IMG/VR virus record: IMGVR_UViG_3300015371_000029
Location: 2,438 to 66,437 of that record
DNA: 64,000 nucleotides
Source: a virus
Reading direction: 5' to 3' (one strand)
Program-made: the position numbers and the translations under genes
Shown here: positions 622 to 16,054 of the stretch, piece by piece
Layout: every line of letters begins with the position of its first letter
How positions within the stretch are numbered: position 1 is the first letter of the stretch
The notes under the pieces: model-generated
Told to the model about the DNA's origin: nothing
Databases searched by the model: none
Seen by the model: only the letters and a program-made list of their open reading frames with translations

Positions 622-704
622 ATGGCACCCTCCTTTTGGTATGATAGCTGGATAGCTACCGGGAAGGGGCGCATCTCTGCGCCCCAACCGCTAGCTGTCG
701 AGCA

Positions 705-1130
705 TCAGACTCCTGTAGCAGACTCCTGCACCGGATCGCAGAACTCCTGAGCGATCTGGCGAAGATCCGTCAACTTGGCATAGGCCCCGTCGCCGCAAGG
801 AGCGCTGTACCTGATGTCGTAGCTCTCATCCGTGTCGCTGCGCTCCACGGTGAAGTCGCCGCGACCGTTGGCCGGCACTTCGTCCTTGGGCTCGTCGCCG
901 CCCTCCATCTTGGACAGCCGCTCGACGATGCGCTGGAACCGATTGACGCCGCAGTGCCACTCGTCGCTGCCGCTGACGGTGTCGTAGATCTGGTAGACGT
1001 CATCGTCCATGACATCTGTGCGGAAGTACAGAACGTTGTCCTTGCGGACAACGACGCAGTTCTGCACATAGTGGTCGCGAACGACATCGAACAAGCCGTA
1101 GCGGAGCACTAGCTCCTTGACCTTGATCAT
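705..1130 (-). CDS. hypothetical protein
   Basis: ATG at 1130 after AAGGAGGGTGCC RBS. Confidence 0.7.
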   Translation of the reverse strand: MIKVKELVLRYGLFDVVRDHYVQNCVVVRKDNVLYFRTDVMDDDVYQIYDTVSGSDEWHCGVNRFQRIVERLSKMEGGDEPKDEVPANGRGDFTVERSDTDESYDIRYSAPCGDGAYAKLTDLRQIAQEFCDPVQESATGV

Positions 1131-1206
1131 GGCACCCTCCTTGATAGGGCTTATATGGAGTTCGGAATTGAACTCCCCAGGGCGCTTACTCAGCGCCCCA
1201 GGCAGG

Positions 1207-1560
1207 TCACTCACGCCATTCCTCTTTCCAGAGTGGATCCACGAAGTCATCGACCATCAGAAGATCTGGCCAACAACTTTCTTGACCGGTGGTTCTCGCG
1301 GGTCCGTGACAATTGTCGCAGATCTGTTGCTCTTTCGGCGTCGTAGCCTTCATGAGCCAGAAGCCGTTGCACCAGTGGCAATCGTGCCCACGAACACGAA
1401 TGCCACTCTTCTTGAACTCCACGTAGCCACGGGCATACCGACAGGCATTTCCGTGACCAGGAATCCAAATCGAAGAGTGATCGACTCCGCATTCGACCTC
1501 GACATATGCCAGGGTCTGCATCCGCTCCGTCAACGTTTGTACGCCGACGACTCTCATCAC
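1207..1560 (-). CDS. hypothetical Cys-rich (CxxC x2) protein
   Basis: Overlaps stop of the upstream gene; CHWC and CDNC motifs. Confidence 0.6.
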   Translation of the reverse strand: MMRVVGVQTLTERMQTLAYVEVECGVDHSSIWIPGHGNACRYARGYVEFKKSGIRVRGHDCHWCNGFWLMKATTPKEQQICDNCHGPARTTGQESCWPDLLMVDDFVDPLWKEEWRE

Positions 1561-2108
1561 TTGTCCCGGCAGACCGGGCCGATGCCGAGCTGCCTAGACA
1601 GTTCGTCCGTCAACGTGCGGCCGCAAACGTAGCAGCGACCGATCTCGCGACCGAAGCGGGGGCCGGCATCGGGATCGTTCTTGATCGCTGTCAGGATGCG
1701 AGCCTTCTCGGGCTTCGCCTTGATCGGCCAACGAGCATCCGACGCCCAGACATCCACGAAGGTCGTGTACGTGCCCTTCTTGACGCTGTAGAACATCAGC
1801 GTCCCATCGGGCTTCGGAATTGCGTAACGACCGTCAGCCACTTCAGGCAGCTTACCTTCACTGTCGCTGTCCCTTGCTGCCCAGGGAAGAGGCTTGAGCG
1901 TGTCGATCACGTCACCGGCTCGCTTCTTGGGGATCTTGGCGAAGTCCACATCCGCGAGCCAGGCTCGTTGTTCCGGACTGAGCTTCGACAGATCCTTGCC
2001 GTCGCGCAGGCTGTTGAGGTAGGTCACCTGAGGTTCTGTCGCGAGCGGCCCGGTCAGTAGATGCTCCGGCACTGGCGAGCGTTCCTCCGAACGTTCTCTT
2101 GTAGTCAT
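1557..2108 (-). CDS. DUF6011-like zinc-ribbon protein
   Basis: C-terminal CYVCGRTLTDELSRQLGIGPVC; strong RBS. Confidence 0.75.
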   Translation of the reverse strand: MTTRERSEERSPVPEHLLTGPLATEPQVTYLNSLRDGKDLSKLSPEQRAWLADVDFAKIPKKRAGDVIDTLKPLPWAARDSDSEGKLPEVADGRYAIPKPDGTLMFYSVKKGTYTTFVDVWASDARWPIKAKPEKARILTAIKNDPDAGPRFGREIGRCYVCGRTLTDELSRQLGIGPVCRDK

Positions 2109-2255
2109 TGGTACCCTCCTATTGGTTGTTCGGACATAATGTCCAGACCGGGCAGCCGAAGCTGCCCGACCTGCGCATTACGCGCCGATGAAGGATGAAC
2201 TAGGAAGCTTGAGCCGTAGCCTGTACACTTCTTCGTTGGGCCTTCATCCCATGTT

Positions 2256-2535
2256 AAGCCCTGCCTAGCCGGACCGAGCCGAACCCGACCGAGGCCGGTC
2301 GTGCCGCGCCAAACATGCCGCGCCAAGCCGCGCCTAGTCAATGCAAGTCCAGCCTTGCCTTACCCCGCCGCGCCAGGACACGTTCGGCCGCACCTGGCAC
2401 GGCTTTGCCCCACCACGTCCCGCGCCGCCTTGCCATTCCTTGACAATGCCACGTCTGGACGCGCCTTGCCGTGGCCGGTCACGTCAAGCCCAGCACAGGC
2501 AATCCGCGCCTGGCCTGGACGTGCCCCGCCCCACC
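2256..2535 (-). repeat. array of 55 GGY-NN pentamers, candidate guide-like ncRNA
   Basis: Minus strand parses as GGTGG GGCGG GGCAC GTCCA GGCCA GGCGC ... GGTCG GGTTC GGCTC GGTCC GGCTA GGCAG GGCTT; 33/55 units start with exact GGY and 20 more differ by one base; two register shifts. Confidence 0.85.
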
Positions 2536-2539
2536 CAGG

Positions 2540-3262
2540 TTAGCCCTGAGCAGTTTCTTCATGCTTGATGCTCCGACGGTGATTGTCATGAGCATCTTCC
2601 TCAGTGCGGTTTCGACCCTTCTTGGCATCTCCTTCCGCAGGAGGCTTGTGATTCCTGCTGTTCGTGAGCTGCGCGAGGAATGAGCCGAATTCAGGGCGGT
2701 AGTCGCCCAGGCCATACTTCTGCGACCGCTCAACCACGAGATCGAGGAAGTCTCCATCGAGATCCTCAGGGTCATATGCGATCTCGGCTTCGAGGTTCCA
2801 TTGCTCAAACTTCGGCCGGGTGCGAGGCACTCGTCCCGATCCTGCTCCGGCGTTGGAGACCATCGCTGTGTAGCGATAGCCTTCATCCCAGAGCGACTTC
2901 TGATCGCGAGGGCCGTCATAGAGCAACGGGATCCTGTACTCGCAGACGACGAGTGATCGCTTGATCTCCTCGCCCTTGCGCCACTTCGTCGCCGCCGAAC
3001 GCAGCAACTCTTTGACGTTCTTGCTCGGAATGTACGGGCCGATCCCAGGATCGAGATAGATCCGCAGTTGCCATTCCAGTTCACGCAGACGAGCTTCGTC
3101 ATCGAGCGACTTTCTGCGCTTCTGCCCGAGCAAGTAGTACGCCCGGTACAACTCTGAGTCGCGATCAACCTCGCCGTTGCTCATGAGAAGCGGTGAAGTG
3201 CCCTTCAGGTGCAGGGTCGCTGTGGCGTAGCCCACTGGCACGATCCTTCTTAACCAAGACAT
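2540..3262 (-). CDS. stand-alone Cas7/RAMP-like RNA-binding protein (240 aa)
   Basis: N-terminal LHLKGTSPLLM strand, PYIPSKNVKELLRSAA (cf. RAMP YIPGSSxKGxLR), RPKFEQWNLEAEI, C-terminal G-rich loop GLGDYRPEFGSF; ATG at 3262 after AGGAGGGTGCCAT. Confidence 0.75.
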   Translation of the reverse strand: MSWLRRIVPVGYATATLHLKGTSPLLMSNGEVDRDSELYRAYYLLGQKRRKSLDDEARLRELEWQLRIYLDPGIGPYIPSKNVKELLRSAATKWRKGEEIKRSLVVCEYRIPLLYDGPRDQKSLWDEGYRYTAMVSNAGAGSGRVPRTRPKFEQWNLEAEIAYDPEDLDGDFLDLVVERSQKYGLGDYRPEFGSFLAQLTNSRNHKPPAEGDAKKGRNRTEEDAHDNHRRSIKHEETAQG

Positions 3263-3339
3263 ATGGCACCCTCCTATGGGTCTGATAGAACGCTGGATAG
3301 CGTCCGGCGGGGGAGCCATTTCTGGCCCCCAACCGCACG

Positions 3340-3525
3340 CTACATTGAGACCTTCTTCACCGAGATGACGAAGGCCCCTTCAGGGAAGAACGCGGTGACG
3401 CACGGTCGCAGTTCTCCATTCACGAGTTCTTGATCGAGACTCGTGAGGTCGGCTGTCGCAGTAGCCTTCTCGTTGCCGAGCAGCCTCTGCTCCAACCACA
3501 TGGCGAACTCCTCTGCCGTCATCAT
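3340..3525 (-). CDS. hypothetical protein
   Basis: Overlaps stop of the upstream gene; stop abuts a leader element. Confidence 0.6.
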   Translation of the reverse strand: MMTAEEFAMWLEQRLLGNEKATATADLTSLDQELVNGELRPCVTAFFPEGAFVISVKKVSM

Positions 3526-3980
3526 CCCCAGCGTCTCCGGAATGCCCGGAACTGGAACTCGCGACGCATCAGCGTCGCAGCATCTTCATCGACCTTTTCG
3601 TACAGGTCTCCGACGAGCGCCATGACTTCGAGTTCCTGCCCGACATTCGCCTCGGCGATGGCCCGTCTCTGGACTGACGTTGGACGACTGCGAACGAACT
3701 CGCGACCGAACTCCGTCAACTCCCAGAAGCCGGTCTTGCCGGCGATCTTGTCGATCACGCCCATCCGTCGCATGTACGCGAAGCGGATGGCTACGCAGTG
3801 ACGAGCATGCCAGGCCGTGTCTTCATCGCTCGCCGCCTTCGGCCAGATCGTCTCAGCGACTCTCTGGATGTCAACTTCTCCGTCGCGATTCTGAAGATCG
3901 TTGACGATGGCGAGTAGCTCGCGGTCACTGAAGTCCGTGATCCGTAGGCTGATGCTGCCGTTGTTACTTCCACGGGGCAT
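3522..3980 (-). CDS. probable winged-helix DNA-binding protein
   Basis: RFAYMRRMGVIDK...GFWELTEFGREF wing-like motif. Confidence 0.55.
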   Translation of the reverse strand: MPRGSNNGSISLRITDFSDRELLAIVNDLQNRDGEVDIQRVAETIWPKAASDEDTAWHARHCVAIRFAYMRRMGVIDKIAGKTGFWELTEFGREFVRSRPTSVQRRAIAEANVGQELEVMALVGDLYEKVDEDAATLMRREFQFRAFRRRWG

Positions 3981-4386
3981 AGGCGTGTCCGCCTCCTTGT
4001 ACGCCTCGGGTCGGACGGATCATCTCTTCCTCCCGCAAGTAGCGAAGGGAGGCATTGACCGTTCCATTGGCCAACCCGAGTTCGTTGATGAGTTCGCGGG
4101 CCGTCCAGTCAGGCTTTTTCGGACGGTCCTTCATGAGACCTAAGATGGTCTCAGCATGACGCTTGATCGCCGGTGTGACGACCAACGGCTGCTTGGCCCG
4201 GCTGGTCTGCTTCGACTTCGGGCCAGGCCTCGTGCCGTTCGCAGCCTTCAGGATCCGGTCGATGATCGCTTGCTCTTCCCGAAGGGAAGCGACATGCATC
4301 ATCATTTGGTCGATCTCTTCCTGAAGCTGATTGCGCTTCTCACGCAACGGTGCGATGATCTCGCTAACCGTCTTGTCTACTTTCAC
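3964..4386 (-). CDS. coiled-coil plus winged-helix DNA-binding protein
   Basis: N-terminal coiled coil; WTARELINELGLANGTVNASLRYLREEEMI HTH; RBS upstream. Confidence 0.65.
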   Translation of the reverse strand: MKVDKTVSEIIAPLREKRNQLQEEIDQMMMHVASLREEQAIIDRILKAANGTRPGPKSKQTSRAKQPLVVTPAIKRHAETILGLMKDRPKKPDWTARELINELGLANGTVNASLRYLREEEMIRPTRGVQGGGHAYAPWK

Positions 4387-4726
4387 TTGGCACCCTCCTT
4401 TTGTAGGCTATGCTAGTAGTGCATCTCTGCACCGGGAAGCGTTTCGTCTCCGAAACGCAACCGCTACAGAATTGTGTGGACGAGCAGGCAGAGAAACGAG
4501 GTAGGAGGATGCCATATTCTCAGGGCCTCGCTGTTGCTTCTACCTTAACCCTCTAGGACAATGTCCTTGGTGTGACTGGCAAAGAGCTTTGACTCATCCA
4601 CAGCTATCGTGCAACCTCCTAGTTTAGCTTAGGGCATCACCCGGCTTTCACCGTATGATACCCTCCGTCCTGCGGGCCTTATTGCCCCGTCTGGAGCGGG
4701 TTAGGCTCCAGTCGGCGCAGCAATGC

Positions 4727-5014
4727 CTAGATGCCTGCGCTTCTCTTGTTGGTGATCATCTCGCGAACCTCGACGGGATCGAGACCTGTGAACTCCCATT
4801 GGTCGTTGAGCCAGACGTAGGCTGCCTGGAAGGATTCGCCCATGTCGATCAGGCCGATGGTGTAGTCCCTGGTTTTCTCCCAGAGCCTTAGCCTCAGCCT
4901 CTCGATGTACAGATCGTACATGGTGCTCATGTGCGGGAAATCACCCTTGATGTCCCGAGCAGCCGCATCTGCTATCGCTCGTAGCAGTTGATCCTGATTC
5001 GTTGAAACGCTCAT
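4727..5014 (-). CDS. hypothetical protein
   Basis: ATGA coupling with the upstream gene. Confidence 0.6.
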   Translation of the reverse strand: MSVSTNQDQLLRAIADAAARDIKGDFPHMSTMYDLYIERLRLRLWEKTRDYTIGLIDMGESFQAAYVWLNDQWEFTGLDPVEVREMITNKRSAGI

Positions 5015-5229
5015 GAATCGAGGATCGACTTCGCATCGTTCTCCAGCCTGACGTACATGTCACGGATCTCTGACCAGTGTTCATGGTAGTGCCTGGCTGT
5101 TGCGCGTTCGTGCATCGTTGTCGCTGCGTCGATCTTCTGCCGATAGTCCTCGGCCTGTTGCGTTGCCTCCCGGCGTCGGTCGCCGATCAACCTCGCAATT
5201 CGGAGAGCCTTTTCCTCCGCAGTTTGCAA
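5011..5229 (-). CDS. hypothetical helical protein
   Basis: TTG start after AAAGGAGGGGTAC. Confidence 0.6.
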   Translation of the reverse strand: MQTAEEKALRIARLIGDRRREATQQAEDYRQKIDAATTMHERATARHYHEHWSEIRDMYVRLENDAKSILDS

Positions 5230-5345
5230 TCTGTACCCCTCCTTTGGTCGGTTGGAGCCGGTAGCTCCGGGCCAATGCCCCGAAGGGCAGAGACCCGCAG
5301 CACCCAGCCGGAGGGTATTTGGCGGGATGCGCTATGGAGGATGAC

Positions 5346-5960
5346 TTACTCCTCCACTCCTGCAATTGCCCTCAGCTGCTTCGTGATGCTGTCGTTCGAC
5401 GCGAGGTTGAACGCCTCTTCGTACTTGGCGAACGCCTCTTCCTCCAGGAAGTGCATCCTGACGTCCATGACCGGCTGTCCTTCCCTGGTCACGAGACCTT
5501 CCTGCTCAAGGATGTCCTCCCAGGTCGAATCGTCTGCCATCTCGCCGGAGATGCGCGGGTAGGGCATCCGATCCATGACCTCAGGGTCGCCGTCGTCGAT
5601 CTTCTGGAGCAGCTCCTTGGCTCGCTCGGCCTCGACGTCATTCGGCAGCCACCAGCTAGCAGCCGCCTCGCCGTCGTCCTTGCCGCGCTCGGCGGCAACG
5701 TGCTCGGCCCAGGTCTCGCTAACGAGCTGACGGATCGCTTCGACAATCGCGCCGAGATGACGCGATCCCTCGACCTTTCCGCCCTTCTTGTCGAACTGCT
5801 CGTTACAGACCCACATCGCCTTGGACGAGTTGAGCCAGTCGTACTTGACGTCGTGCGCTTCAAGGCCGTGGATGAACTCGTCGGCCATCTCTTTGATGAG
5901 CGGATCCTGCTTCAGCCTATCGACAACTTCTTGATAGTGCTCAGCTCTCATGCTGAACAA
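5346..5960 (-). CDS. hypothetical acidic protein
   Basis: 204-aa ORF with AAGGAGGGATAC RBS. Confidence 0.7.
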   Translation of the reverse strand: MFSMRAEHYQEVVDRLKQDPLIKEMADEFIHGLEAHDVKYDWLNSSKAMWVCNEQFDKKGGKVEGSRHLGAIVEAIRQLVSETWAEHVAAERGKDDGEAAASWWLPNDVEAERAKELLQKIDDGDPEVMDRMPYPRISGEMADDSTWEDILEQEGLVTREGQPVMDVRMHFLEEEAFAKYEEAFNLASNDSITKQLRAIAGVEE

Positions 5961-6044
5961 TGTATCCCTCCTTATTTTCTGGCTAAGTAGCGGGATGCTA
6001 CCGAACCGGACAGCGCATGTCTGCCCGATCCGCTAGACGCCTGC

Positions 6045-6317
6045 TTACGAAATGATCTTGATGATGTGGTACGGAAGATGGTCGCCCTGATGTCCACCGG
6101 GCTGAAGATGCTGCCAGATCTCAGCGCCGTCGTCCCGTAGCAACTCGGCGACACGGTTCAGGATCTTCGCGATCATCGCCGTCAGCTCTTCCATCGGATC
6201 ACCGCCGCCGACCGAAATCAGGCTGGCCATGTTCTGTGCGATGAACTCGACCGGCCGACCCTGCTCTGCTTCCTGCAGGATCAGCCAGGCTCCGAGCCTA
6301 TCAGCTTCTGTATACAT
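6045..6317 (-). CDS. hypothetical protein
   Basis: RBS AAGGAGGGTACCA. Confidence 0.65.
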   Translation of the reverse strand: MYTEADRLGAWLILQEAEQGRPVEFIAQNMASLISVGGGDPMEELTAMIAKILNRVAELLRDDGAEIWQHLQPGGHQGDHLPYHIIKIIS

Positions 6318-6381
6318 TGGTACCCTCCTTTTATTGGACGTGATGTCCGGCCCGCTCCGCTTCTACGGAGCGGTCCGCACC

Positions 6382-6585
6382 TCACGGTTCCAGGTGCTTC
6401 ATCCTGCCTTCCGGCCTCAGTTGCTCCTCGATCAGCATTGTCGTGAGCTTATTGCTCACCCGCTCGCTGAGTGGCGTTACCTTGAACGGGATCGTCCTGA
6501 TGAGAATGTCCATCAGGTTATCGACATCTGGCTGAGTCGCCGGAATCTCCGGTGATCCGAGAGCGATGACGAGGTAGCGGATCAT
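6382..6585 (-). CDS. hypothetical protein
   Basis: ATGA overlap with the upstream gene. Confidence 0.55.
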   Translation of the reverse strand: MIRYLVIALGSPEIPATQPDVDNLMDILIRTIPFKVTPLSERVSNKLTTMLIEEQLRPEGRMKHLEP

Positions 6586-7586
6586 GACGGCAGCTGGCCT
6601 TTCTTGTCTCCCCGAACCTGCTCGCCCTGGGGCACAATCCGGGCATCTGCTCCGGCCTTGCCGCCTTGAACGCGAGCCGACCAGTCGATGCTCCGGCCGT
6701 AGCGGTAGCTCGTTGCACGACGCTTCGCCTTGACCGGCTTACGAGCTGCCGAGCAACGCTCGCACTGGCAGTCGTCCGGATGAGGACGCAGCTCCGGGAA
6801 GTCATCGAACAACGCTTCCCGAGCCTGCTCGCGGATGTCACGAACGGCCAGGGCCATCGAGTTGCTAGACGACTCCTGCCGCTGACCTTGCATCTCATCG
6901 AACCGACGCTTGATCGTGGCGACGTAGCCGTCCATGAACGACAGCGCCCAGGTCGTTGGATGCATCCGGATCCGTTCCTCGTCCGGGTGATGCGCGGCGA
7001 GATGCCTGTCGTAGGCACGCTTCATCGCTCCCTTGTCGTTCGTCTTGACGCCGCCGGTGCCGTTCGGGATCACCCATTCGGGCCGACCGGCCCAGATGGC
7101 GATGTCCGTGTACTTCATGCCGGCGTTCTTGGCGTTGTAGACGTTGTGTCCAAGGGACAGTGACGGATCGAACTTCGGCTTCAGACGCAGTGACATCTGA
7201 AGGAAGAGGTCGGTGAAGAGCAGTTCCAGATAGCTCAAGTCCGACGGCATGCCGTACACCGCCTGCTTCAGCTCCTTGTGATTCCAGACGGAGCTGGATG
7301 TGTAGCAGCGGCAGAACGTGACGCAGTACGTCCAGAGCCAGTGGATCCTCTGCCGGACATCGTAGTCGATGCCCTTCAGCTCCGTGTACCAGGACACATC
7401 CATGTCACGGCGTTCTACGATCTTCGCCTTCTTGTCGTCATGGAGCAGAAGCAGGGCCTGGTCGATGGCATACTTCTCCATCAACTGGTCGGCCTTGGCG
7501 AGGAATGACTCGCGCTCCGCTTCGAACTCCGTGGCGTTCGCCTTGGCGATCAACCCTCGGACTCGTCTTAGGATGTCTTCAGACAT
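6582..7586 (-). CDS. DUF2786 domain-containing protein
   Basis: N-terminal ILRRVRGLIAKANATEFEAERESFLAKADQLMEKYAID. Confidence 0.8.
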   Translation of the reverse strand: MSEDILRRVRGLIAKANATEFEAERESFLAKADQLMEKYAIDQALLLLHDDKKAKIVERRDMDVSWYTELKGIDYDVRQRIHWLWTYCVTFCRCYTSSSVWNHKELKQAVYGMPSDLSYLELLFTDLFLQMSLRLKPKFDPSLSLGHNVYNAKNAGMKYTDIAIWAGRPEWVIPNGTGGVKTNDKGAMKRAYDRHLAAHHPDEERIRMHPTTWALSFMDGYVATIKRRFDEMQGQRQESSSNSMALAVRDIREQAREALFDDFPELRPHPDDCQCERCSAARKPVKAKRRATSYRYGRSIDWSARVQGGKAGADARIVPQGEQVRGDKKGQLPS

Positions 7587-9446: not shown

Positions 9447-9518
9447 TGGTACCCTCCTATTTGGTTCGTTCATGGAGCCTGTGCTCCTGCCCCGAAGCTC
9501 GTCGGGGCAGCAGAACAT

Positions 9519-9902
9519 TCACCAGTCGAGATCGTGCGACCCATCGGGCCAGACGATGTAGAGCGGCTTGGCTGCTCTGCGGGTCTCGCGGATCACCATC
9601 CAGGTGCCGCTGCCGCGCCGCATCTCGTTCCGACCGAACGGTGTCGTGACCACGATGTCGGAGACCTTGACGATCTCGCGGTTGCGCTTACGGTTCTGCT
9701 CTGCGTCACCGCCCGGATGTGGGACGGTCTCGTAGCCGAGCTGCTTAGAGATCCGCAGCATCTGCTTATCCGCGCCATCCTCGCACATGCCGTTGTGCAG
9801 ATAGGACTTACCCTTGCGCAATGTCCGCAAGAGCATCTTGACCGTCGTGATCTGCTGTTCGGTCATTCCTCGGCGGGTGCCCGAGAAGCCAACGTGAATC
9901 AC
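9519..9902 (-). CDS. SLOG/DprA-like Rossmannoid nucleotide-binding protein
   Basis: VGFSGTRRG, HNGMCEDGADKQ, RNREIV, GSGTWMVIRE..AAKP motifs. Confidence 0.7.
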   Translation of the reverse strand: MIHVGFSGTRRGMTEQQITTVKMLLRTLRKGKSYLHNGMCEDGADKQMLRISKQLGYETVPHPGGDAEQNRKRNREIVKVSDIVVTTPFGRNEMRRGSGTWMVIRETRRAAKPLYIVWPDGSHDLDW

Positions 9903-9977
9903 AGCTGATACCCTCCTTTGCTATGGTGCGAGCGCACCGGGTGCTGCCCCACCGCAGAGGGGCAGACACCGCTGTGC

Positions 9978-10454
9978 TCAGTTGTTCTTTCGGAGCCAGT
10001 GCTCCTCGTGCTTCTTGTTGTCCGCGATGCTGACGACCTCGATGTTGTTGTAGTCGCCGTAGTCTTCCTCGGTCATCTGCTTCGCCAGCTCGGGCGACGT
10101 GGCCGAGACGACATCCCAGAAGCGGATGTAGCCGTCCTTGTCCGCGCCATCTTCGTTCGGGCCGTAAAACGAGCCGCGCACCAGGTAGCGGTGCTCGGTT
10201 GTGCCGACCTTGTTGAAGCTGTAGCGGGCGTCGGCGATGTAGCAGTTGTTCGTCCGCACCTTCGCGCTGATCTCGGCCATCATCTTCTCGGCCTCTTCCA
10301 GCGTACGGAACTGCATCGCCTTGTCCGCGTCGTCGCGAGCGCCGCTGGCGCTGAAGCGCGGCTTGTCCTCATCGAAGTCCCATTCGCGAAACGTGCCTCG
10401 CGTCGGGCTTTCGATGATGAAATACTCGCCGAAGTTGTGCATGCTAAGAGGCAC
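9978..10454 (-). CDS. hypothetical protein
   Basis: 158-aa ORF overlapping the upstream stop. Confidence 0.6.
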   Translation of the reverse strand: MPLSMHNFGEYFIIESPTRGTFREWDFDEDKPRFSASGARDDADKAMQFRTLEEAEKMMAEISAKVRTNNCYIADARYSFNKVGTTEHRYLVRGSFYGPNEDGADKDGYIRFWDVVSATSPELAKQMTEEDYGDYNNIEVVSIADNKKHEEHWLRKNN

Positions 10455-10707
10455 TGACGATCACCTCGACGGTCGAGGATGCGACCAGCATCTGTCCGAG
10501 TCCGGTGCCGAGGTTCGGGCTGGCACGGAACTCCTTGTAGTGCTCCTCGCAACCATTTCCCCAAGACCCGAAGACCGTGGGGAAGTCGTACTCAGCCGTC
10601 TTGTCGCACTGGAAGTTGCACCGAGGCAACGTACTGACCTCGATGATCTGGTGCGGAACCAGCGTGACCGACTCGCCGTTGAGACGCTTACCTACCTTGC
10701 GTTTCAT
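10444..10707 (-). CDS. small Cys-containing hypothetical protein
   Basis: ATG at 10707 after RBS; CNFQC...CEEH. Confidence 0.6.
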   Translation of the reverse strand: MKRKVGKRLNGESVTLVPHQIIEVSTLPRCNFQCDKTAEYDFPTVFGSWGNGCEEHYKEFRASPNLGTGLGQMLVASSTVEVIVSAS

Positions 10708-10790
10708 GGGTACCCTCCTATTTTGTTCTGGAGCGGGTGCTCCGAGCGCCGCCCGGTGTAACTTAGTTGGGCGGCGTTGCGCAGGATCCG

Positions 10791-10988
10791 CTATTCGACG
10801 GGCTTGTAGAGGTTCAGGCCCAGCTTCAGCTCGGTGTCCGGGACATCGATGTTGCCGGCGGTCGTCGCGAACATCTCGCTGCTGCCGGACTTGGACTTCC
10901 CGAACGACTTGCTGATGTCGCACACGATGGTCAGCTTCTTGTTCTTGCCCGTTCCGCTGACCGTCATCTCGACGTTCTTTGCTGGCAT
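10791..10988 (-). CDS. small beta-rich hypothetical protein
   Basis: ATG at 10988 after RBS. Confidence 0.7.
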   Translation of the reverse strand: MPAKNVEMTVSGTGKNKKLTIVCDISKSFGKSKSGSSEMFATTAGNIDVPDTELKLGLNLYKPVE

Positions 10989-11076
10989 TTCGGTACCCTC
11001 CTTTTGGTAGTTAATGGCCGGTGCAAGTAGCTTATGCACCGGGTGCCATCCCTTTCGAGATGGACACCGCTACATA

Positions 11077-11331
11077 CTACTCGGCGAGTTGCTTGTTCAG
11101 CTCTCTGATGCGAACCTTCGCCTCCAGTTCGCGAACCTCTTGCTCGGCGGGACTGAGCGAGGCGACCTGATTGACGGGACTGCGCAGCGCGCAGATGAGT
11201 ACGCCGATCCAGCCCAGAAGAACTCCCCAGACCCAGCCGTTCGACCGGCCCTTGCCCGTGGCGATGTGCTGTGAGAGCCAGATCGCTGCGACCCATGAGC
11301 CGAACCAGAAGAGAACGATGATTGCTGCCAT
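11077..11331 (-). CDS. small membrane protein
   Basis: Two hydrophobic segments plus coiled-coil tail; RBS. Confidence 0.7.
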   Translation of the reverse strand: MAAIIVLFWFGSWVAAIWLSQHIATGKGRSNGWVWGVLLGWIGVLICALRSPVNQVASLSPAEQEVRELEAKVRIRELNKQLAE

Positions 11332-11410
11332 TTTGGCACCCTCCTATTTGGGTTTTGTGTGGGCGAAATTGCCCGGTCGGGGCTTACGCAGCCCCGCCCG
11401 CGCGATTGCG

Positions 11411-11890
11411 CTACATGTGTTCGACGAACTTTACCGACTGGCTCTCTCGACCATCGAGAGACATCGTTCCGACTCGCCAGATGCACTCTCCTTGCTCTAC
11501 GAACTCGACGGTGACGTACAGCGCAGGTTCACCGTCCCAGTTGACGTGGAAGCCCTGCTTACGCGGCGAGCTGTCCGAGACATCCAGTTCGACCGATGGG
11601 AGTCGGAGCATCCCGCCGACCACAACCGGCTGCGGCTGCTTGACTAGCTTACCGTGGAAGTGTTCCATGACTTCCTTCGGCGGCTCGCCCTGATCGGCCG
11701 GCAGGTCTGACCAGGTCATCCATTCGTCGCCCGGATCCTTGAGGTCGATGACGTCGCCGCGCAGCCGGAACTCCAACCGTTCGGGGCCTTCGGCCTCGGT
11801 CATCGTGACGGTGTAGCGGAACTCGTAGATCGCTCCATCCGGACTTATCCAAAGGCAAGTCGGACTGGTGGGATCGTTGACGATCTCCAT
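11411..11890 (-). CDS. hypothetical protein
   Basis: RBS plus leader element. Confidence 0.65.
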   Translation of the reverse strand: MEIVNDPTSPTCLWISPDGAIYEFRYTVTMTEAEGPERLEFRLRGDVIDLKDPGDEWMTWSDLPADQGEPPKEVMEHFHGKLVKQPQPVVVGGMLRLPSVELDVSDSSPRKQGFHVNWDGEPALYVTVEFVEQGECIWRVGTMSLDGRESQSVKFVEHM

Positions 11891-11968
11891 GTTGGTACCC
11901 TCCTTCGTAGCTTAGCATGGGCAGATGCCCGGATGCCCCATCGTTAGATGGGGACACCGCGCTACTGC

Positions 11969-12175
11969 TTACCTGACGCTGACGAGCTTGCCGTTCTCCA
12001 TCTTGCCTGTTGCGTACCAGACGTGGGGTTGCGGGTAATGCGGGCCTTCGATGGAGACTTCTCCGTCTTGCGGGATCGTCTCCAGGCCGTTGGCGGTAAC
12101 GGTGACGTGATCGCCGTTCTTGACGGCCTCCTTCAGGGCCTTCTTGGTCTTGAAGTTCGGATGTGCGTATGCCAT
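11969..12175 (-). CDS. small hypothetical protein
   Basis: ATG at 12175 after GGAGGGTACCA. Confidence 0.7.
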   Translation of the reverse strand: MAYAHPNFKTKKALKEAVKNGDHVTVTANGLETIPQDGEVSIEGPHYPQPHVWYATGKMENGKLVSVR

Positions 12176-12253
12176 TGGTACCCTCCGTTGTAGCTTAGTT
12201 TGGGCCAGTTGCCCGGAACCCATCCTACGTTGTCTTGCAGGATGGGAGCCGCG

Positions 12254-12538
12254 CTACCGTCCGCCGCAACCGGCATGTCCGCAGCCGCCGCAGAATCCGC
12301 CATTACAACAAGCGCATCCGCATGGGCCGGGCCTGTGCGCTCTGGGCGCCAGTGCCGGAATCTCGATGACGTGAACGGCCTCGACGTGCTCGCCCAGAAT
12401 GCCTTTCATCTCAGCGATCTCGGCCTCGATCTCGGCGTCGGTCTTGCCGGCGACGTAGCTTCCGGCAACCTTCTTGCCGAAGAAGCCATACTCGCCGTTG
12501 ACGCCGTGATCGATGTACTCGATCTTTATGGTCGTCAT
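12254..12538 (-). CDS. hypothetical protein with Cys/Gly-rich metal-binding tail
   Basis: C-terminus CGCACCNGGFCGGCGHAGCGGR. Confidence 0.65.
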   Translation of the reverse strand: MTTIKIEYIDHGVNGEYGFFGKKVAGSYVAGKTDAEIEAEIAEMKGILGEHVEAVHVIEIPALAPRAHRPGPCGCACCNGGFCGGCGHAGCGGR

Positions 12539-12606
12539 GAGTACCCTCCTTTGGTAATTGGTGCGATGACACCGGCAAGGCTCTCCGCGAGGAGAGCCAA
12601 CCGCTG

Positions 12607-12792
12607 TCATGCCGGCAGCCCGTCCTTAACGTACCTGGACAGGAAAAGCGCCAGCATGAACTCGGTGAAGCTTGCCTCGTTGGGAACGAGGCTCAAGATC
12701 CACCGAGACACATCAGCCGCCTCTTCGTCGGTGAGCGTTCCACCGTCGTAGACGCGCTGATGAAGCTCGTGAGCTTCATCTACAGTCAACAT
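12607..12792 (-). CDS. hypothetical protein
   Basis: ATG at 12792 after RBS. Confidence 0.6.
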   Translation of the reverse strand: MLTVDEAHELHQRVYDGGTLTDEEAADVSRWILSLVPNEASFTEFMLALFLSRYVKDGLPA

Positions 12793-12891
12793 CGATACCC
12801 TCCTTTTGTACTTTGGCGTGGGAACACACCGGGTGCCATCCTTATGTAGGATGGACACCGCTGCGTTCTTACCACTTCCAGCCGAAGCGGA

Positions 12892-13266
12892 TCATGCGGC
12901 TTTGGTGTTGATGATGGAGCTGATCTCGACCTTCAAGCGGTTGCGCGCCTCGACCACCTGACGGTTGTATGAGATCTTCTGGTCGATGTCGCCGTAGATG
13001 ATGTTGGCAGGCTTCTTCGGGGTGAGCTGAATGTCGATCCACTTCCCGTCGTCGCCGCCGAACATCTTCGCGTAGTCGTTGTACGCCTTCTCGATGCTGG
13101 TGATCTCCCAGCCGTCCGGGACGCTGTCCTGGGCGAAGTCCTCGACCTCCATGAAGGTGTGAGCATCGACCAAGAGGCTTATGACGGCCTCCTCGCCCTT
13201 CTTGGGCAGACCATGTCTTGAGTAGTTGATGGTGTAGACCGCCTCCGGCCACTTATGCCATTTCAT
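12892..13266 (-). CDS. hypothetical protein
   Basis: RBS plus leader element. Confidence 0.65.
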   Translation of the reverse strand: MKWHKWPEAVYTINYSRHGLPKKGEEAVISLLVDAHTFMEVEDFAQDSVPDGWEITSIEKAYNDYAKMFGGDDGKWIDIQLTPKKPANIIYGDIDQKISYNRQVVEARNRLKVEISSIINTKAA

Positions 13267-13334
13267 GAGTACCCTCCTGTTGGTAAATGGGGCTGATCCC
13301 CCGAAGCTGCCCTGTTACGGGCAGCAACGGTGGT

Positions 13335-13601
13335 TCAGTCGTTGATGGCGTGCTCGCGCTTGCTCTCGACGACAGGCCAGCCGAATGAGCGCCAGCGCCC
13401 TTCGGTCGGCTCGGAGTATGAGCAGAGCGTGACCTGGCGCTTCTCCTTGAGCCGCTCGCTGCGGTGGTGCGGCGCGAGGTTGATGACGTTGTCGCCGCCT
13501 GCGTTGCTGGCGGGCCAACAGGCGTCCGAGCGAAGCATGTCGAACGGGAACTCGCCGTCGCCCTCGACAACGAAGCGATGGAGATAGACTTTCCTTGCCA
13601 T
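13335..13601 (-). CDS. hypothetical protein
   Basis: ATG at 13601 after RBS; FPFDMLRSDACWP. Confidence 0.65.
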   Translation of the reverse strand: MARKVYLHRFVVEGDGEFPFDMLRSDACWPASNAGGDNVINLAPHHRSERLKEKRQVTLCSYSEPTEGRWRSFGWPVVESKREHAIND

Positions 13602-13678
13602 GATGTACCCTCCTTGTGGTATGCGGACTAGATGTCCGGAAGGCTCCCTGTTGTAGTTAAGGGGAGCCAACCGCGCAG

Positions 13679-13819
13679 CTAGCGCGAATGGATGATGTCG
13701 ATGAGCCGGTTGAACCAGGCGCGGGTCTGCGGCTCGATGACCGTCTCGACCGTGACCTGCGGGGCGGGCCTGTTGTGCCGGCGGGCCTTCTCGTTCCGGC
13801 GGCGCTGCTTCTTGCTCAT
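13679..13819 (-). CDS. small basic protein
   Basis: ATG at 13819 after RBS. Confidence 0.55.
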   Translation of the reverse strand: MSKKQRRRNEKARRHNRPAPQVTVETVIEPQTRAWFNRLIDIIHSR

Positions 13820-13907
13820 GAGTACCCTCCTTGTGGTGTGTGTTTGGAGCGATGCTCCGGGTGCCGTTCGCTGTAACTTAGTTGAGCGAACGGACACCGC
13901 AGCTTCG

Positions 13908-14123
13908 CTATGCGGGAAGTATGACGGCGATGCTGTCCGGGATGACGTGGTAGATGTCGTCGCCGTTATCCCACTTCACCGGGATCGCGTCGCCAACTTC
14001 GCTGCCGTCCGGTGCCATGACCGTTCCGTACTTCGAATCCGGGATGGATGCGACACGCGAACCGACCTCGATGTCGTTGAGATCGTAGTCCAGCGAGAAG
14101 CATTCGTCGGAATGCATAGGCAT
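13908..14123 (-). CDS. small SH3-like beta protein
   Basis: IEVGSRV...YGTV...IPVKWDNG; RBS (start may be 14117). Confidence 0.55.
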   Translation of the reverse strand: MPMHSDECFSLDYDLNDIEVGSRVASIPDSKYGTVMAPDGSEVGDAIPVKWDNGDDIYHVIPDSIAVILPA

Positions 14124-14284
14124 GTACCCTCCTTTTTCGTTGTTTTGTTGCGGCTACAAGACCGGGCGATGTTATTCGCCCGATCTTCTAGTCGTCATGC
14201 TAGAGCTGGGAAAGGTTGGGCTGCTTCCCCGTCAGCTTCCAGATCTTGAGCGCGAGATCGACTTTGTCCTTTAGCGACATGACA

Positions 14285-14467
14285 TCACGTCGCGATCTGG
14301 ACTGCGAGCATGGCCGGACAACCGTTCTTGACGAGCTTCCGGAACAAGCTTAGATCGACCTCGTTGGCTGAGGTGACTGCGACGAGCGGGTTGATCCCGC
14401 CGCGCTGGAGAGACTCGACTTTCCAATCGAATGTCTCCTCTTCCTTGTCATCATACCAAGGTCGCAT
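14285..14467 (-). CDS. hypothetical protein
   Basis: ATG at 14467 after RBS. Confidence 0.6.
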   Translation of the reverse strand: MRPWYDDKEEETFDWKVESLQRGGINPLVAVTSANEVDLSLFRKLVKNGCPAMLAVQIAT

Positions 14468-14556
14468 GTTGTACCCTCCTGTTGAAGATGGCTCGGTGCG
14501 GGATGCACCGGGGAGCCTTCCCGTTGTACTTAGCTGCGGGAAGGCAACCGCTGCAT

Positions 14557-14676
14557 CTAGGCGTTGAAGCCGAGCGCGAGCAAGACTCGCTTGATGAACG
14601 ATGTCCTGGGCTTCGGCGCGTCGAGCATCATCATCTCGGCGTGCGTCATTCGGGACGAATCGTACCAACTCGCCAT
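14557..14676 (-). CDS. 39-aa hypothetical protein (not in ORF track)
   Basis: MASWYDSSRMTHAEMMMLDAPKPRTSFIKRVLLALGFNA between two leader elements, with RBS. Confidence 0.5.
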   Translation of the reverse strand: MASWYDSSRMTHAEMMMLDAPKPRTSFIKRVLLALGFNA

Positions 14677-14743
14677 GAGTACCCTCCTTGTGTTCGGCAA
14701 TCGGATGATTACCGGGAGCATCCCCCTTTCGGGGGATGACCCG

Positions 14744-15136
14744 CTACTCGTCCGAGAACTTGTGTTTCGGGCAACGATGAACCCGTAGGCCGTCGATGCT
14801 CTTCGTCATGATCGCCTTTTCGTTGCACTTGGGGGAAGTGATGATCCGGAGCTGGTAGAACGATCCGGCGGGGCCGGATGCGGTGGTCTTGCCTCGGCGC
14901 TTCTTGAGGTAGACGATCTCCAACTCGCCGGTCTCCGGATCCGGGATGTGCGCTCCGCATGTCGGATTGTCGGGGACGTTGTTGCGGTCGGTCTGTTGAA
15001 TCCGCCTCGGCGGGCCGAATTGGAGTTGTTCCTTGTGCGGGACGGCGAAGCGCGCGGCGGCGGTTGCGCGTCCGTTGTGGACGAGCTTCTTGCCTCCGCG
15101 AGCTTTCCGCGCCTTGCGGCGTTGAGATCCGCTCAT
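14744..15136 (-). CDS. basic hypothetical protein, first gene of the leftward array
   Basis: RBS AAGGAGGGTACAAAATG. Confidence 0.65.
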   Translation of the reverse strand: MSGSQRRKARKARGGKKLVHNGRATAAARFAVPHKEQLQFGPPRRIQQTDRNNVPDNPTCGAHIPDPETGELEIVYLKKRRGKTTASGPAGSFYQLRIITSPKCNEKAIMTKSIDGLRVHRCPKHKFSDE

Positions 15137-16054
15137 TTTGTACCCTCCTTGTAGAAACGGCTTTGGGGCGACTCGCGCTCCGATAGGGGTCGCGCGGCTA
15201 CGTTGATCAGACGCTTATTGGCGGCGCGGCCCCTACCGGAGCGCCCGACGGCCATTTCTAGCTCGCATCGGGCGTCCGGTAGCCATTAGGAGGGGGTACC
15301 ATTTTAACGAAGACTTCGTGATGAAAAGCTTTACAACGTTCGCCGTAATCCTCTCGATTGACTTTTTCGTTCCCTACTTGCCGGAATCCCCGGATTGGAG
15401 TAAGTCTCTCCGGTTGAGGCGTTCGGTTGCGGTAAGGCGTTCCGCTCTACTAACGGTCGGCCCCGGTCGCCCGATGATTTTCGGTCGCGTTACGGACTAT
15501 GCTCGTAACTTGGTCTCCGTCCCGATTCGGTCGTCGGGAAGGGCTATTGCGGCCCCTAGTTATAGCCCGAGATCGTTGCCGAATTACTCTTGATCCCGTC
15601 GGTATCGCCGCCCGGCCTCCTTTCAAGCTACCGATCCCGGCGCGAACTTGCGGAGATGTCCCCGTAGTTTCGCGTCTATCCGGTCGGCTCTTGATCGGCC
15701 TAAAGGCTAGCGTCCCGCTCCGTTCCAACCGCCTCGGGGGTTCCGGTAGTCGCGTTCCCGATTGTTAAGTTGCTTCGGGTCGGCGCTCCGGCCTTCCGGA
15801 CGGGTTGCCCTCGACTCGCGAGGGAGGCCCGTTGAGGCCCGCTTCCCTCGGCTCCGTCCGTTTCCGGCGTTGCTCCGAGGGGCGCTCCCTCCCGCTAGCT
15901 CGCGAATCGGAGGGAGCTAGCGGCGAAGCCGTCCGCGCCTTCGACAACCGCGCTTCTAGCTCCGCTAGAAGCGTAACGTCTCACAACTGTTGATAGTTGA
16001 TAAAAGTACGGAAATAGCGGGTTTTTTCTTTTCCCGCTATTAGCGAACTTTTTT

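What the first reader, a model, noticed from the sequence alone, without database searches (positions are those of the whole stretch)
622..15200. ~28 structure-conserved leaders divide the early region into gene cassettes
On the minus strand most intergenic gaps read stop codon...GCGGT(T/G)-hairpin 1-CCGG-hairpin 2-A/C-rich spacer-AGGAGGGT(A/G)C-start. Examples: TAGCGGTGT CCCACA CAAAA TGTGGG CACCCGGTGCG CT CGCACC TAACC AAGGAGGGTACC (8785-8725) and TAGCGGTT GCGTTTCG GAGA CGAAACGC TT CCCGGTGCA GAGA TGCAC (4466-4419). Stem sequences differ but pairing is kept, so selection appears to act on structure. The upstream stop often overlaps TAGCG. Possible roles: RNA processing or stabilising sites, translational activators, or attC-like single-strand recombination sites for shuffling cassettes. 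It recalls the start-associated sequences of some mycobacteriophages but is larger and structured.
Basis: partly seen in the sequence, partly recalled or inferred. Interest (0 to 1): 0.85.

Follow-up and report, generated by a model that had tools for sequence, protein, structure and literature searches.

The report
Two-state RNA leaders before phage early genes
Almost every gap between the early genes of this uncultured soil phage holds the same folded RNA module, a long hairpin that can refold into two hairpins followed by a tagged ribosome-binding site, which probably controls how the long early message is cut, protected and translated.

Summary
In the minus-strand operon 15136..232, 25 of 26 intergenic gaps of 40 nt or more hold a parsed element, and the 26th holds a variant.

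The element is more than "hairpin 1 + hairpin 2". The 6 nt before GCGG pair with the 6 nt after CCGG (5.00 of 6 against 2.42 cross-element, 0 of 20000 permutations). This gives a long hairpin of about 20 rungs with a G.G mismatch.

The same 3' strand also forms hairpin 2, so the two folds exclude each other. They are close in energy (mean difference -2.15 kcal/mol).

Covariation is strong: score 0.878 against 0.185 in shuffles.

The leaders have no promoter, no U-tract and no Rfam match.

Uncultured relatives carry the same architecture with other anchor sequences.

The extended ribosome site AGGAGGGTRCC has one complementary "anti" motif at the head of the operon (15300-15289). This pair co-varies between two phage groups.

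Best reading: an RNA processing and stability module plus a translation module, unproven because no RNA data exist.

The attC-like idea is not supported, although one cassette-sized indel in relatives ends at element edges.

This scan has noted analogous leader modules and anti-ribosome-site hairpins on other DNA.

The parts
15289..15300 (-). Single sense-strand anti-motif GGTACCCCCTCC, complementary (with a 2-C bulge) to the tagged ribosome site. It lies about 150 nt upstream of the first tagged gene.
   Evidence: It occurs once per record in 5 of 5 relatives' records. The reversed control pattern gives 0 matches.
15134..15152 (-). Tagged ribosome site and start of the first early gene. No hairpin element.
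14674..14750 (-). Leader element, junction G 14744/14712.
   Evidence: R2 score 51.8 bits.
14465..14557 (-). Leader element, junction G 14551/14508. The 13-nt apical loop carries CTAAGTAC.
   Evidence: R2 score 47.3 bits.
14121..14194 (-). Leader element of the continuous-helix type, junction G 14188/14157. No hairpin 2 of 4 bp or more.
   Evidence: R2 score 12.9 bits.
13817..13906 (-). Leader element, junction G 13900/13857.
   Evidence: R2 score 29.7 bits.
13599..13680 (-). Leader element, junction G 13674/13636.
   Evidence: R2 score 35.4 bits.
13264..13337 (-). Leader element with the anchor helix flipped (CCG/CGG) and an A.G junction, 13331/13300.
   Evidence: R2 score 43.6 bits.
12790..12867 (-). 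Leader element, junction G 12861/12829.
   Evidence: R2 score 33.4 bits.
12536..12610 (-). Leader element, junction G 12604/12572.
   Evidence: R2 score 50.6 bits.
12173..12258 (-). Leader element, junction G 12252/12213. TAAGCTAC lies in the spacer.
   Evidence: R2 score 32.7 bits.
11888..11966 (-). Leader element, junction G 11960/11929. TAAGCTAC lies in the spacer.
   Evidence: R2 score 28.8 bits.
11329..11407 (-). Leader element, junction G 11401/11373.
   Evidence: R2 score 19.5 bits.
10986..11076 (-). Leader element, junction G 11070/11039. The hairpin 2 loop carries TAAGCTAC.
   Evidence: R2 score 45.3 bits.
10705..10790 (-). Variant leader with two hairpins and no clear junction.
   Evidence: Not parsed. 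No R2 hit at E of 5 or less.
9900..9978 (-). Leader element, junction G 9972/9937.
   Evidence: R2 score 36.7 bits.
9444..9517 (-). Leader element with a short upper stem, junction G 9511/9486.
   Evidence: R2 score 12.3 bits.
8717..8789 (-). Leader element, junction G 8783/8753.
   Evidence: R2 score 24.5 bits.
7946..8023 (-). Leader element with a flipped anchor helix (CCG/CGG), junction G 8017/7983.
   Evidence: R2 score 27.4 bits.
7584..7657 (-). Leader element of the continuous-helix type, junction G 7651/7623.
   Evidence: R2 score 20.9 bits.
6315..6384 (-). Leader element, junction G 6378/6347.
   Evidence: R2 score 35.3 bits.
5958..6039 (-). Leader element of the continuous-helix type, junction G 6033/6001.
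   Evidence: No R2 hit at E of 5 or less.
5227..5304 (-). Leader element with a UUCG loop, junction G 5298/5267.
   Evidence: R2 score 11.8 bits.
4384..4470 (-). Leader element, junction G 4464/4432.
   Evidence: R2 score 56.1 bits.
3260..3342 (-). Leader element, junction G 3336/3304.
   Evidence: R2 score 51.6 bits.
2106..2180 (-). Leader element of the continuous-helix type with a UUCG loop and a 2x2 junction loop, 2174/2143.
   Evidence: R2 score 19.5 bits.
1128..1209 (-). Leader element, junction G 1203/1175.
   Evidence: R2 score 14.8 bits.
619..697 (-). Leader element, junction G 691/659. It is the last one in the operon.
   Evidence: R2 score 55.2 bits.

Best explanation
These are RNA-level intercistronic leader modules of one long leftward early operon.

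Anatomy of each module:
1. It starts at or just after the upstream stop codon with an irregular hairpin of about 20 rungs: a gene-specific lower stem of 5-7 bp, a G.G mismatch, a 3-bp anchor helix (usually CGG/CCG), a small internal loop, and a variable upper stem of 7-9 bp. The upper stem is capped by a GNRA or UUCG tetraloop in 7 of 25 elements.
2. The 3' strand of the lower stem is followed by a short loop and a second copy of the 5' flank. It can therefore fold instead into a small second hairpin that begins exactly at the junction. The two folds exclude each other.
3. A G-poor A/C-rich linker follows.
4. The module ends with an extended ribosome site, AAGGAGGGTRCC, 4-10 nt before the start.

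Proposed mechanism (inferred):
- The long hairpin is the ground state and is cut near the G.G junction by a double-strand-specific endonuclease of the host (RNase III type), as at the intercistronic sites of T7 early mRNA.
- The upper hairpin then caps the 3' end of the upstream message.
- The freed strand refolds with its spare partner into hairpin 2, which sits flush at the new 5' end and protects the downstream message.
- The unstructured linker and strong ribosome site give each cassette context-independent translation.
- The non-rRNA part of the ribosome site is conserved because it pairs with a single anti-motif RNA encoded at the head of the operon, which could throttle all tagged genes together.

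Shown: the anatomy, covariation, mutual exclusion, strand bias, absence of promoters and terminators, and co-variation of tag and anti-tag. Not shown: cleavage, stabilisation, or pairing in vivo.
For: Lower stem:
- Native 5.00 of 6 in-register pairs against 2.42 cross-element, 0 of 20000 permutations.
- With only the 17 literal GCGG..CCGG anchors, 5.12 against 2.51, 0 of 20000.

Junction: G.G in 24 of 25 elements, and one A.G with a flipped anchor helix.

Hairpin 2:
- A stem of 4 bp or more starts at the G before the junction G in 24 of 25.
- Best stem 5.16 against 3.46 in chimeras, 0 of 5000.

Fold energies: the long hairpin is more stable in 18 of 24, the two-hairpin fold in 4 of 24, and 9 of 24 differ by 2 kcal/mol or less.

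Covariation on 17 rows: score 0.878 against 0.185 in shuffles (0 of 500), and 0.11-0.17 in slid controls.

Geometry: the arm from junction to loop is 11-15 nt in 23 of 25, while the loop varies from 3 to 13 nt.

Strand: G.U 17 against A.C 0 inside hairpins 1 and 2.

No transcription signals:
- No terminator-like and no sigma-70-like site on the minus strand of 1-17600.
- A TANNNT hexamer in 7 of 26 leaders against 5.1 in shuffles.

Linker composition over 14 nt: A 154, C 119, T 56, G 35.

Relatives: the same architecture with other anchor sequences. 84 of 106 upstream regions fold into a main hairpin of 14 pairs or more, and the outermost 1x1 mismatch is G.G in 37 of 78.

Anti-motif:
- It occurs once per record, at the head of the tagged region, in 6 of 6 phages.
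- A second phage group with the tag CCAGGGAGG has one sense-strand CCTCCCTGG at the tip of a conserved hairpin.
- Duplex energy is -19.1 for 27 early sites against -12.8 for 31 late sites.
Against: - There is no RNA evidence of any kind.
- The phage has no RNase III domain and the host is unknown.
- The lower stem shows no strand bias: 5 G.U against 8 A.C.
- In 5 of 25 elements the stop codon lies 30-365 nt away.
- Hairpin 2 chimeras still reach 4 bp in 46% of cases, because GG and CC are conserved.
- My automatic junction finder on 71 relatives' sites gave only 2.06-2.27 against 1.69-1.78.
- The regex set of 84 candidates, which includes false positives, gave 3.40 against 2.48.
- The covariance alignment is fitted to the model, and 11 of its 17 rows trained the model.
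- If transcription starts about 7 nt after the TATAAT-like box next to the anti-motif, its GGUAC part would not be in the RNA.
Confidence: 0.42

Rival explanations
1. Translation-only insulator or switch, with no cleavage. The hairpins wall the ribosome site off from upstream coding RNA and keep the A/C linker open as a standby site. A ribosome terminating on the stop codon inside the lower stem flips the element from the long hairpin to hairpin 1 plus hairpin 2, so each downstream start senses upstream translation.
For: - The stop codon lies -1 to 13 nt from the junction in 20 of 25 elements.
- The two folds differ by a mean of only 2.15 kcal/mol.
- The ribosome site is never paired with the element, and the linker is G-poor.
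Against: - Neither fold touches the ribosome site, so the switch has no obvious output.
- 5 of 25 elements keep both pairings although the stop is 30-365 nt away.
Confidence: 0.23
2. Binding sites for a trans-acting protein, of phage or host, that reads the G.G junction in a helix of fixed length. Examples would be an antiterminator like the nut/N system, or a translational repressor of early messages like T4 RegA (both recalled).
For: - The G.G mismatch is the one feature kept across all anchor types.
- The junction-to-loop distance is constant.
Against: - No RNA-binding family was found among the 15 early proteins I scanned in Pfam. Most early proteins were not scanned.
- The 240-aa protein flagged elsewhere as RAMP-like is absent from 5 of 5 relatives' records, 2 of them complete.
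Confidence: 0.14
3. Terminators or attenuators without a U-tract that grade transcription along the operon.
For: GC-rich hairpins lie right after stop codons. The abstract of PMC3993855 (search listing) says that canonical U-tract terminators are under-represented in mycobacteria, which led to proposals of noncanonical terminators.
Against: - No T-run follows any hairpin.
- 26 serial terminators without promoters between them would silence the distal genes.
- The title of PMC3993855 states that mycobacterial RNA polymerase needs a U-tract (search listing only).
Confidence: 0.07
4. DNA-level recombination sites whose main role is to shuffle gene cassettes, like attC sites or the PeSL repeats of T4-type phages.
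For: - One 354-nt indel between L054 and L048 equals exactly one element plus one gene, with CTGA microhomology at both edges.
- A synteny switch between L054 and L049 falls in the ribosome-site motif.
- PeSLs are a precedent (abstracts of PMC2839356 and PMC4122927).
Against: - No tyrosine recombinase.
- Fixed orientation and fixed distance to starts.
- G.U without A.C inside the hairpins.
- Stems differ between copies, so they are poor substrates for homologous exchange.
Confidence: 0.04

Closest known systems
[quoted passage not shown]
   Same: An unusually conserved, asymmetric motif lies over the ribosome site of many non-structural genes, and its conservation extends beyond what 16S rRNA could pair with. 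A second feature sits just upstream in the intergenic gap. The function is stated as unknown in all four papers.
   Different: - The motif sequence differs.
- ESAS is a 17-bp inverted repeat conserved in sequence and is now read as holding a SigA-like promoter (PMC11373665).
- Here the stems vary and co-vary, no promoter hexamers are enriched, and there are two exclusive folds.
- The passages I read do not mention an anti-motif. I did not read the papers in full, and their supplements were closed.
RNase III processing sites between T7 early genes (recalled; the review PMC3867540 was seen only in a search listing)
   Same: An irregular hairpin of about two helical turns with an internal mismatch, placed between a stop codon and the next ribosome site in a long early transcript without internal terminators.
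   Different: Cleavage is untested here. T7 sites have no second hairpin that reuses the lower-stem strand. There are 26 sites here, against about 5 in the T7 early region (recalled).
PeSL promoter/stem-loop cassettes of T4-type phages (PMC2839356, PMC4122927; abstracts read)
   Same: Small repeated regulatory units flank small genes of unknown function in a plastic region, and indels between close relatives end at the repeats.
   Different: PeSLs combine a sigma-70-like promoter with a terminator. These leaders have neither.
c4 antisense RNA of phage P1, encoded in the same operon as its targets icd and ant (PMC8198154, passages read; Citron and Schuster 1990 seen only in its reference list)
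   Same: An RNA element upstream in an operon is complementary to sites at downstream genes of that operon.
   Different: Here one anti-motif matches about 27 ribosome sites. Its expression, its processing and any effect are untested.

Membership tests
SAS (start-associated sequence) | Conserved asymmetric motif of about 11-13 nt over the ribosome site, a few nt before the start of many genes, in one orientation | tested here: met
   24 exact AGGAGGGT on the minus strand plus 3 near variants, with 4-10 nt between the GGAGG core and the start.
SAS (start-associated sequence) | Consensus GGGATAGGAGCCC (Cluster K) or GGGAAAGGACCCC (Cluster EF) | tested here: not met
   The motif here is AAGGAGGGTRCC.
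SAS (start-associated sequence) | Conserved positions that cannot pair with the 16S rRNA 3' end | not testable with these tools
   The host, and so its rRNA, is unknown. Against the usual bacterial 3' tail (recalled), GTRCC would not pair.
ESAS | Imperfect 17-bp inverted repeat conserved in sequence | tested here: not met
   Stem sequences differ between copies. All 8 upper-stem pairs show changes on both sides.
ESAS | Contains SigA-like -35 and -10 hexamers (PMC11373665) | tested here: not met
   No sigma-70-like site on the minus strand. TANNNT is at chance level, 7 of 26 against 5.1.
T7-type RNase III site | Intercistronic irregular hairpin of about two turns with an internal loop or mismatch | tested here: met
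   9-16 pairs above the junction plus a lower stem (mean 5.0 of 6 in-register pairs) and a G.G mismatch.
T7-type RNase III site | Cut by RNase III, leaving a 3' hairpin on the upstream RNA | not testable with these tools
   No RNA run holds this phage.
PeSL | Early promoter plus a terminating stem-loop | tested here: not met
PeSL | Indels between close relatives end at the repeats | tested here: met
   One indel, the only one in the one close pair available (L054/L048).
attC site of integrons | Partner tyrosine recombinase (integron integrase) | tested here: not met
   PF00589 is absent from the 66,437-bp record rated 100% complete. The control rings in 14 of 14 genomes.
Intrinsic terminator | Hairpin followed by a U-tract | tested here: not met
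   0 sites on the minus strand of 1-17600.
Any Rfam family | Match to a curated covariance model | tested here: not met
   0 matches at gathering score on the window and 0 at E of 1 or less on 500-15400.

The most novel reading that the evidence does not exclude
A whole lineage of uncultured soil phages runs its early genes on a two-part RNA operating system.
- Every cistron is preceded by a bistable hairpin that is cut at a G.G junction and then refolds, so that both products end in a protective hairpin.
- Every cistron also carries a ribosome-site tag that is read by one phage-encoded anti-tag RNA made from the head of the same operon. A single RNA would thus time the translation of about 27 genes.
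- Tag and anti-tag have co-evolved in separate phage groups.
Probability: 0.25. Interest if true: 0.85.

Novelty: new variant of a known kind. Interest (0 to 1): 0.66.

Why it matters
Repeated motifs at the starts of actinophage genes (SAS and ESAS) have been catalogued since 2011 without a mechanism. The 2024 and 2025 papers I read in passages still call their role unknown.

This phage and its relatives give a cleaner case:
- a structure with strong covariation;
- two defined alternative folds;
- an invariant mismatch that can be mutated;
- a matching anti-motif that changes together with the tag between lineages.

Each of these features makes a direct prediction that a two-reporter construct can test.

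If the processing model holds, the element is also a compact natural insulator for building operons in high-GC bacteria.

Tried and rejected
- Megablast of 600-15300 against the phage collection gave no match. The best protein matches to isolated phages are 27-45% identical, so no named relative exists in that collection.
- Rfam gave nothing.
- Sequencing runs: no RNA holder is listed. Seven rows hold parts of the stretch.
- Laying 4 runs gave only short, low-depth contigs identical to the window. There were no joints and no variants, so this says nothing on breakpoints or expression.
- MAFFT alone misaligned the elements. I then used five equal-length seeds.
- My first regex parse crashed, and so did one gene-map script. 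Both were my bugs and I fixed them.
- The automatic junction finder keyed on hairpin 2 worked poorly on the relatives: 2.06-2.27 against 1.69-1.78. I replaced it by MFE parsing and a regex set.
- The alignment mixed both strands, so I did not count pairs on it.
- The scan of genome contigs for a 17-mer gave 52 stretches with one match each, in unrelated taxa. That is about what chance gives by my own rough estimate, so it yields no host or prophage clue. Two loci with two ribosome-site motifs were not examined.
- The 240-aa protein at 2540-3262, noted elsewhere as RAMP-like, has no Pfam hit and matches only phrog_4652 of unknown function.
- The idea that loops of hairpin 2 (often AUCC) or the GTACC tail pair with 16S rRNA was considered by eye and dropped as unconvincing.
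- Leader promoters were rejected.
- No structure prediction, complex prediction, protein-database search or Atlas search was run.
- Supplementary files of the SAS/ESAS papers were closed and might hold alignments that bear on likeness.

Full report
**What the DNA is.** The window is bases 2438-66437 of a single 66,437-bp virus record, rated 100% complete, with GC near 0.59.
- It encodes a Mu-like portal, a tape measure protein, a capsid protein and a DnaE-type polymerase.
- The best matches among isolated phages infect Gordonia, Microbacterium, Streptomyces and Mycobacterium, at only 27-45% protein identity. An actinobacterial host is likely but unproven.
- Public runs that hold parts of the stretch are labelled rhizosphere metagenome.

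**The observation.** Both quoted examples read as written.
- AGGAGGGT occurs 24 times on the minus strand between 627 and 15149, against 1.59 expected in the whole window.
- I mapped 38 minus-strand genes from 15136 down to 235. There are 26 gaps of 40 nt or more. 25 hold an element I could parse, and the gap before 10707 holds a two-hairpin variant. The other 11 gene junctions are overlaps or gaps of 4 nt or less.
- There is no terminator-like and no sigma-70-like site on this strand in 1-17600.

**The structure is larger than described.** RNAfold often joined the sequence before GCGG to the sequence after CCGG.
- I fixed a junction for 25 elements: the G before the anchor helix and the G after it. 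I then counted in-register pairs for the 6 nt outside each. The native mean is 5.00 of 6, the cross-element mean is 2.42, and 0 of 20000 permutations reach the native value.
- Restricting to the 17 elements with literal GCGG and CCGG gives 5.12 against 2.51, again 0 of 20000.
- The two junction bases are G and G in 24 of 25. The exception, 13266, has A.G and a flipped anchor helix, CCG/CGG.
- From junction to apical loop the arm is 11-15 nt in 23 of 25, while loops run from 3 to 13 nt. 7 of 25 loops are GAAA, GAGA or UUCG.
- The full hairpin thus has about 20 rungs and begins at the end of the upstream gene. The stop codon lies -1 to 13 nt before the junction in 20 of 25, and 30-365 nt away in the other 5.

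**Two exclusive folds.** Hairpin 2 is also real.
- A stem of 4 bp or more starts at the G just before the junction G in 24 of 25.
- In a fair control, each 5' arm may search the downstream region of another element. Native stems then average 5.16 bp against 3.46, with 0 of 5000 permutations reaching the native value. Chimeras still reach 4 bp in 46% of cases because GG and CC are shared.
- Hairpin 2 uses the same strand as the lower stem, so the 3' arm of hairpin 2 resembles the 5' flank: 2.17 of 3 identities against 0.90.
- I folded each of the 24 elements that have hairpin 2 under constraints. The long hairpin is favoured in 18, the two-hairpin fold in 4, and the mean difference is -2.15 kcal/mol.

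**Covariation and specificity.**
- A covariance model from five equal-length seeds recovered further elements. Rebuilt from 11 sequences, it finds 20 sense-strand elements at E<0.06, all between 653 and 14750. Nothing else under E 0.5 appears in 64 kb except the mirror strand of one element. 24 of the 25 parsed elements appear at E of 5 or less.
- On the 17-row alignment, 94.7% of cells pair against 57.2% in shuffles. 15 of 17 pairs change on both sides. The covariation score is 0.878 against 0.185 (0 of 500 shuffles), and slid controls give 0.11-0.17.
- The alignment is fitted to the model, and 11 of its rows trained the model. The permutation tests above do not depend on it.
- Inside hairpins 1 and 2 there are 17 G.U and 0 A.C oppositions, so the sense strand folds. 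The lower stem has 5 G.U and 8 A.C, which gives no bias there.

**What the leaders are not.**
- Promoters: a TANNNT hexamer occurs in the last 35 nt of 7 of 26 leaders, against 5.1 in shuffles.
- Canonical terminators: no T-run follows the hairpins.
- Any Rfam family.
- An attC-like system: there is no tyrosine recombinase.

The 14 nt before the ribosome site are A 154, C 119, T 56, G 35, which is an unstructured linker.

**Relatives.** A scan of viral contigs for the ribosome-site motif, and a search with the DUF2786 protein of the operon, brought two groups of uncultured phages.
- Group 1 (L003, L013, L016, L017, L031 and others) shares the tag GGAGGGTACC. Many of its leaders have other anchor sequences, such as GAGCA-G-GAAGTC...GGCCTC-G-TGTTC. 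The layout is the same: lower stem, G.G, short helix, internal loop, variable stem, then a second hairpin that reuses the strand.
- Group 2 (L047-L054) keeps GCGG...CCGG and hairpin 2 but has a different tag, AACCAGGGAGG.
- Over 106 upstream regions from 14 loci, 84 have a main hairpin of 14 pairs or more. The outermost 1x1 mismatch is G.G in 37 of 78.
- Leaders of the orthologous DUF2786 gene in L047, L049 and L052 show stem changes on both sides (sequences printed).
- Orthologous genes can carry different anchor types in different phages.

**Cassette boundaries.** L054 and L048 are 91-94% identical over 16 kb. They differ by one 354-nt indel that equals one element plus one small gene. Both ends lie at the stop-codon edge of an element and share CTGA. 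Between L054 and L049 a synteny switch falls on the tag motif. This fits recombination between dispersed repeats, as shown for PeSLs in T4-type phages (abstracts). It is one clean case, and gene boundaries are common breakpoints in phages anyway.

**The tag has a partner.** I followed a lead from earlier notes of this scan on other phages and searched the sense strand for the complement of the tag.
- The window has one: GGTACCCCCTCC at 15300-15289, about 150 nt before the first tagged gene.
- The same 12-mer occurs once in each of five relatives' whole records, two of them complete. The reversed control pattern gives 0 matches.
- In the 3-kb loci around it, every tagged site lies downstream of it. 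It is the most conserved stretch of that region.
- The opposite strand offers no consistent reading frame behind it.
- Three group 1 phages also have a hairpin whose tip shows the exact complement GGTACCCTCC on stems of different sequence.
- Group 2 phages, with their different tag, have one sense-strand CCTCCCTGG at the tip of a conserved hairpin of 29 predicted pairs. It is present in 6 of 8 loci, and the other two have no copy on the opposite strand.
- Predicted duplexes of the window's anti-motif average -19.1 kcal/mol with the 27 early sites, -12.8 with 31 late ribosome sites, and -10.8 with 7 other minus-strand sites.
- Tag and anti-tag thus change together between lineages. This explains why positions beyond the core GGAGG are conserved. 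Whether the anti-motif is transcribed in full is open, because a TATAAT-like box directly precedes it in four of five relatives.

**Mechanism.** The features to explain are these:
- a two-turn helix with one invariant mismatch at a fixed distance from the loop;
- placement between a stop codon and a ribosome site in a 15-kb transcript without terminators;
- a spare strand that lets the 3' half refold into a hairpin starting exactly at the junction;
- an open linker and a strong tagged ribosome site.

The reading that uses all of them is a processing site of the T7 early-mRNA kind (recalled). A cut at the junction would leave hairpin 1 on the upstream RNA and let hairpin 2 form at the new 5' end.
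- The phage has no RNase III domain, so a host enzyme would act.
- I put this at about 0.4.
- A translation-only insulator or ribosome-sensing switch, a protein-binding site, U-less terminators and a recombination role are the rivals.
- No RNA data exist for this phage, so none of these is excluded.

**Comparison with the known.**
- The ribosome-site half meets the general definition of a start-associated sequence but not its sequence.
- The upstream half fails both defining features of ESAS, a sequence-conserved repeat and an embedded SigA-like promoter (passages).
- It works most like T7 RNase III sites, and its population behaviour is most like PeSLs.
- The anti-motif recalls the c4 RNA of P1, which is encoded in one operon with its targets (passages).
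- I class the whole as a new variant of a known kind.
- My six literature searches found no description of these elements. They searched for the known analogues rather than for this architecture, and they cover only the held library.

Noticed in passing
window 10758-16876, minus strand: TAAGYTAC occurs 10 times in the window against 0.57 expected. 8 are on the minus strand here: 5 in loops or spacers of leaders (10758, 11027, 11907, 12190, 13873) and 3 in the gene-poor region at 16303, 16529 and 16869. TAAGYT fits a TANNNT -10 hexamer, so these may be internal and upstream early promoters or a regulator's site. Another first-reader note also reported this motif.
   Followed up: partly
window 29494-29518, plus strand: The ribosome site of the 166-aa gene right after the capsid gene reads TAGGAGGGGGTGC. 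It is almost fully complementary to the anti-motif at 15300-15289 (duplex -30.3 kcal/mol, by far the strongest of 31 late sites). No second site of this kind exists in five relatives' records.
   Followed up: partly
window 4467-4735, minus strand: A 269-nt stretch without a gene lies between a stop codon and the 4386 leader. It folds at -99.9 kcal/mol (z -2.1), starting with a long irregular hairpin. No tRNA and no Rfam match.
   Followed up: partly
window 2143-2540, minus strand: A 431-nt gap after the 240-aa gene is G-rich with a short-period GGY pattern and has no gene. The 240-aa protein matches only phrog_4652 (unknown function) and is absent from five relatives' records.
   Followed up: partly
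window 8795-8825, minus strand: An extra GC-rich hairpin (CCCCGGAGCCTCGGGGG) lies between the stop at 8845 and the 8719 element, making this gap 125 nt.
   Followed up: no
L016:2590-2665, L017:497-572, L001:2661-2736 (minus strands); L054:14990-15085 and orthologues: Stand-alone hairpins inside the early regions of relatives show the exact complement of their own ribosome-site tag at the tip. Their stems differ in sequence between phages. The window itself has no such hairpin, only the leader copy.
   Followed up: partly
window 8217-8513, 1557-2108, 6582-7586, minus strand: The early proteins most widely shared among element-bearing phages are a KTSC-domain protein, a DUF6011 protein and a DUF2786 protein, all of unknown function.
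   Followed up: no
L134-L137 and L133, about 20 nt before the anti-motif: A TTGAAA-like box, 4-5 nt, then TATAAT directly abut the anti-motif in four of five relatives. The spacing is too short for a standard -35/-10 pair.
   Followed up: no
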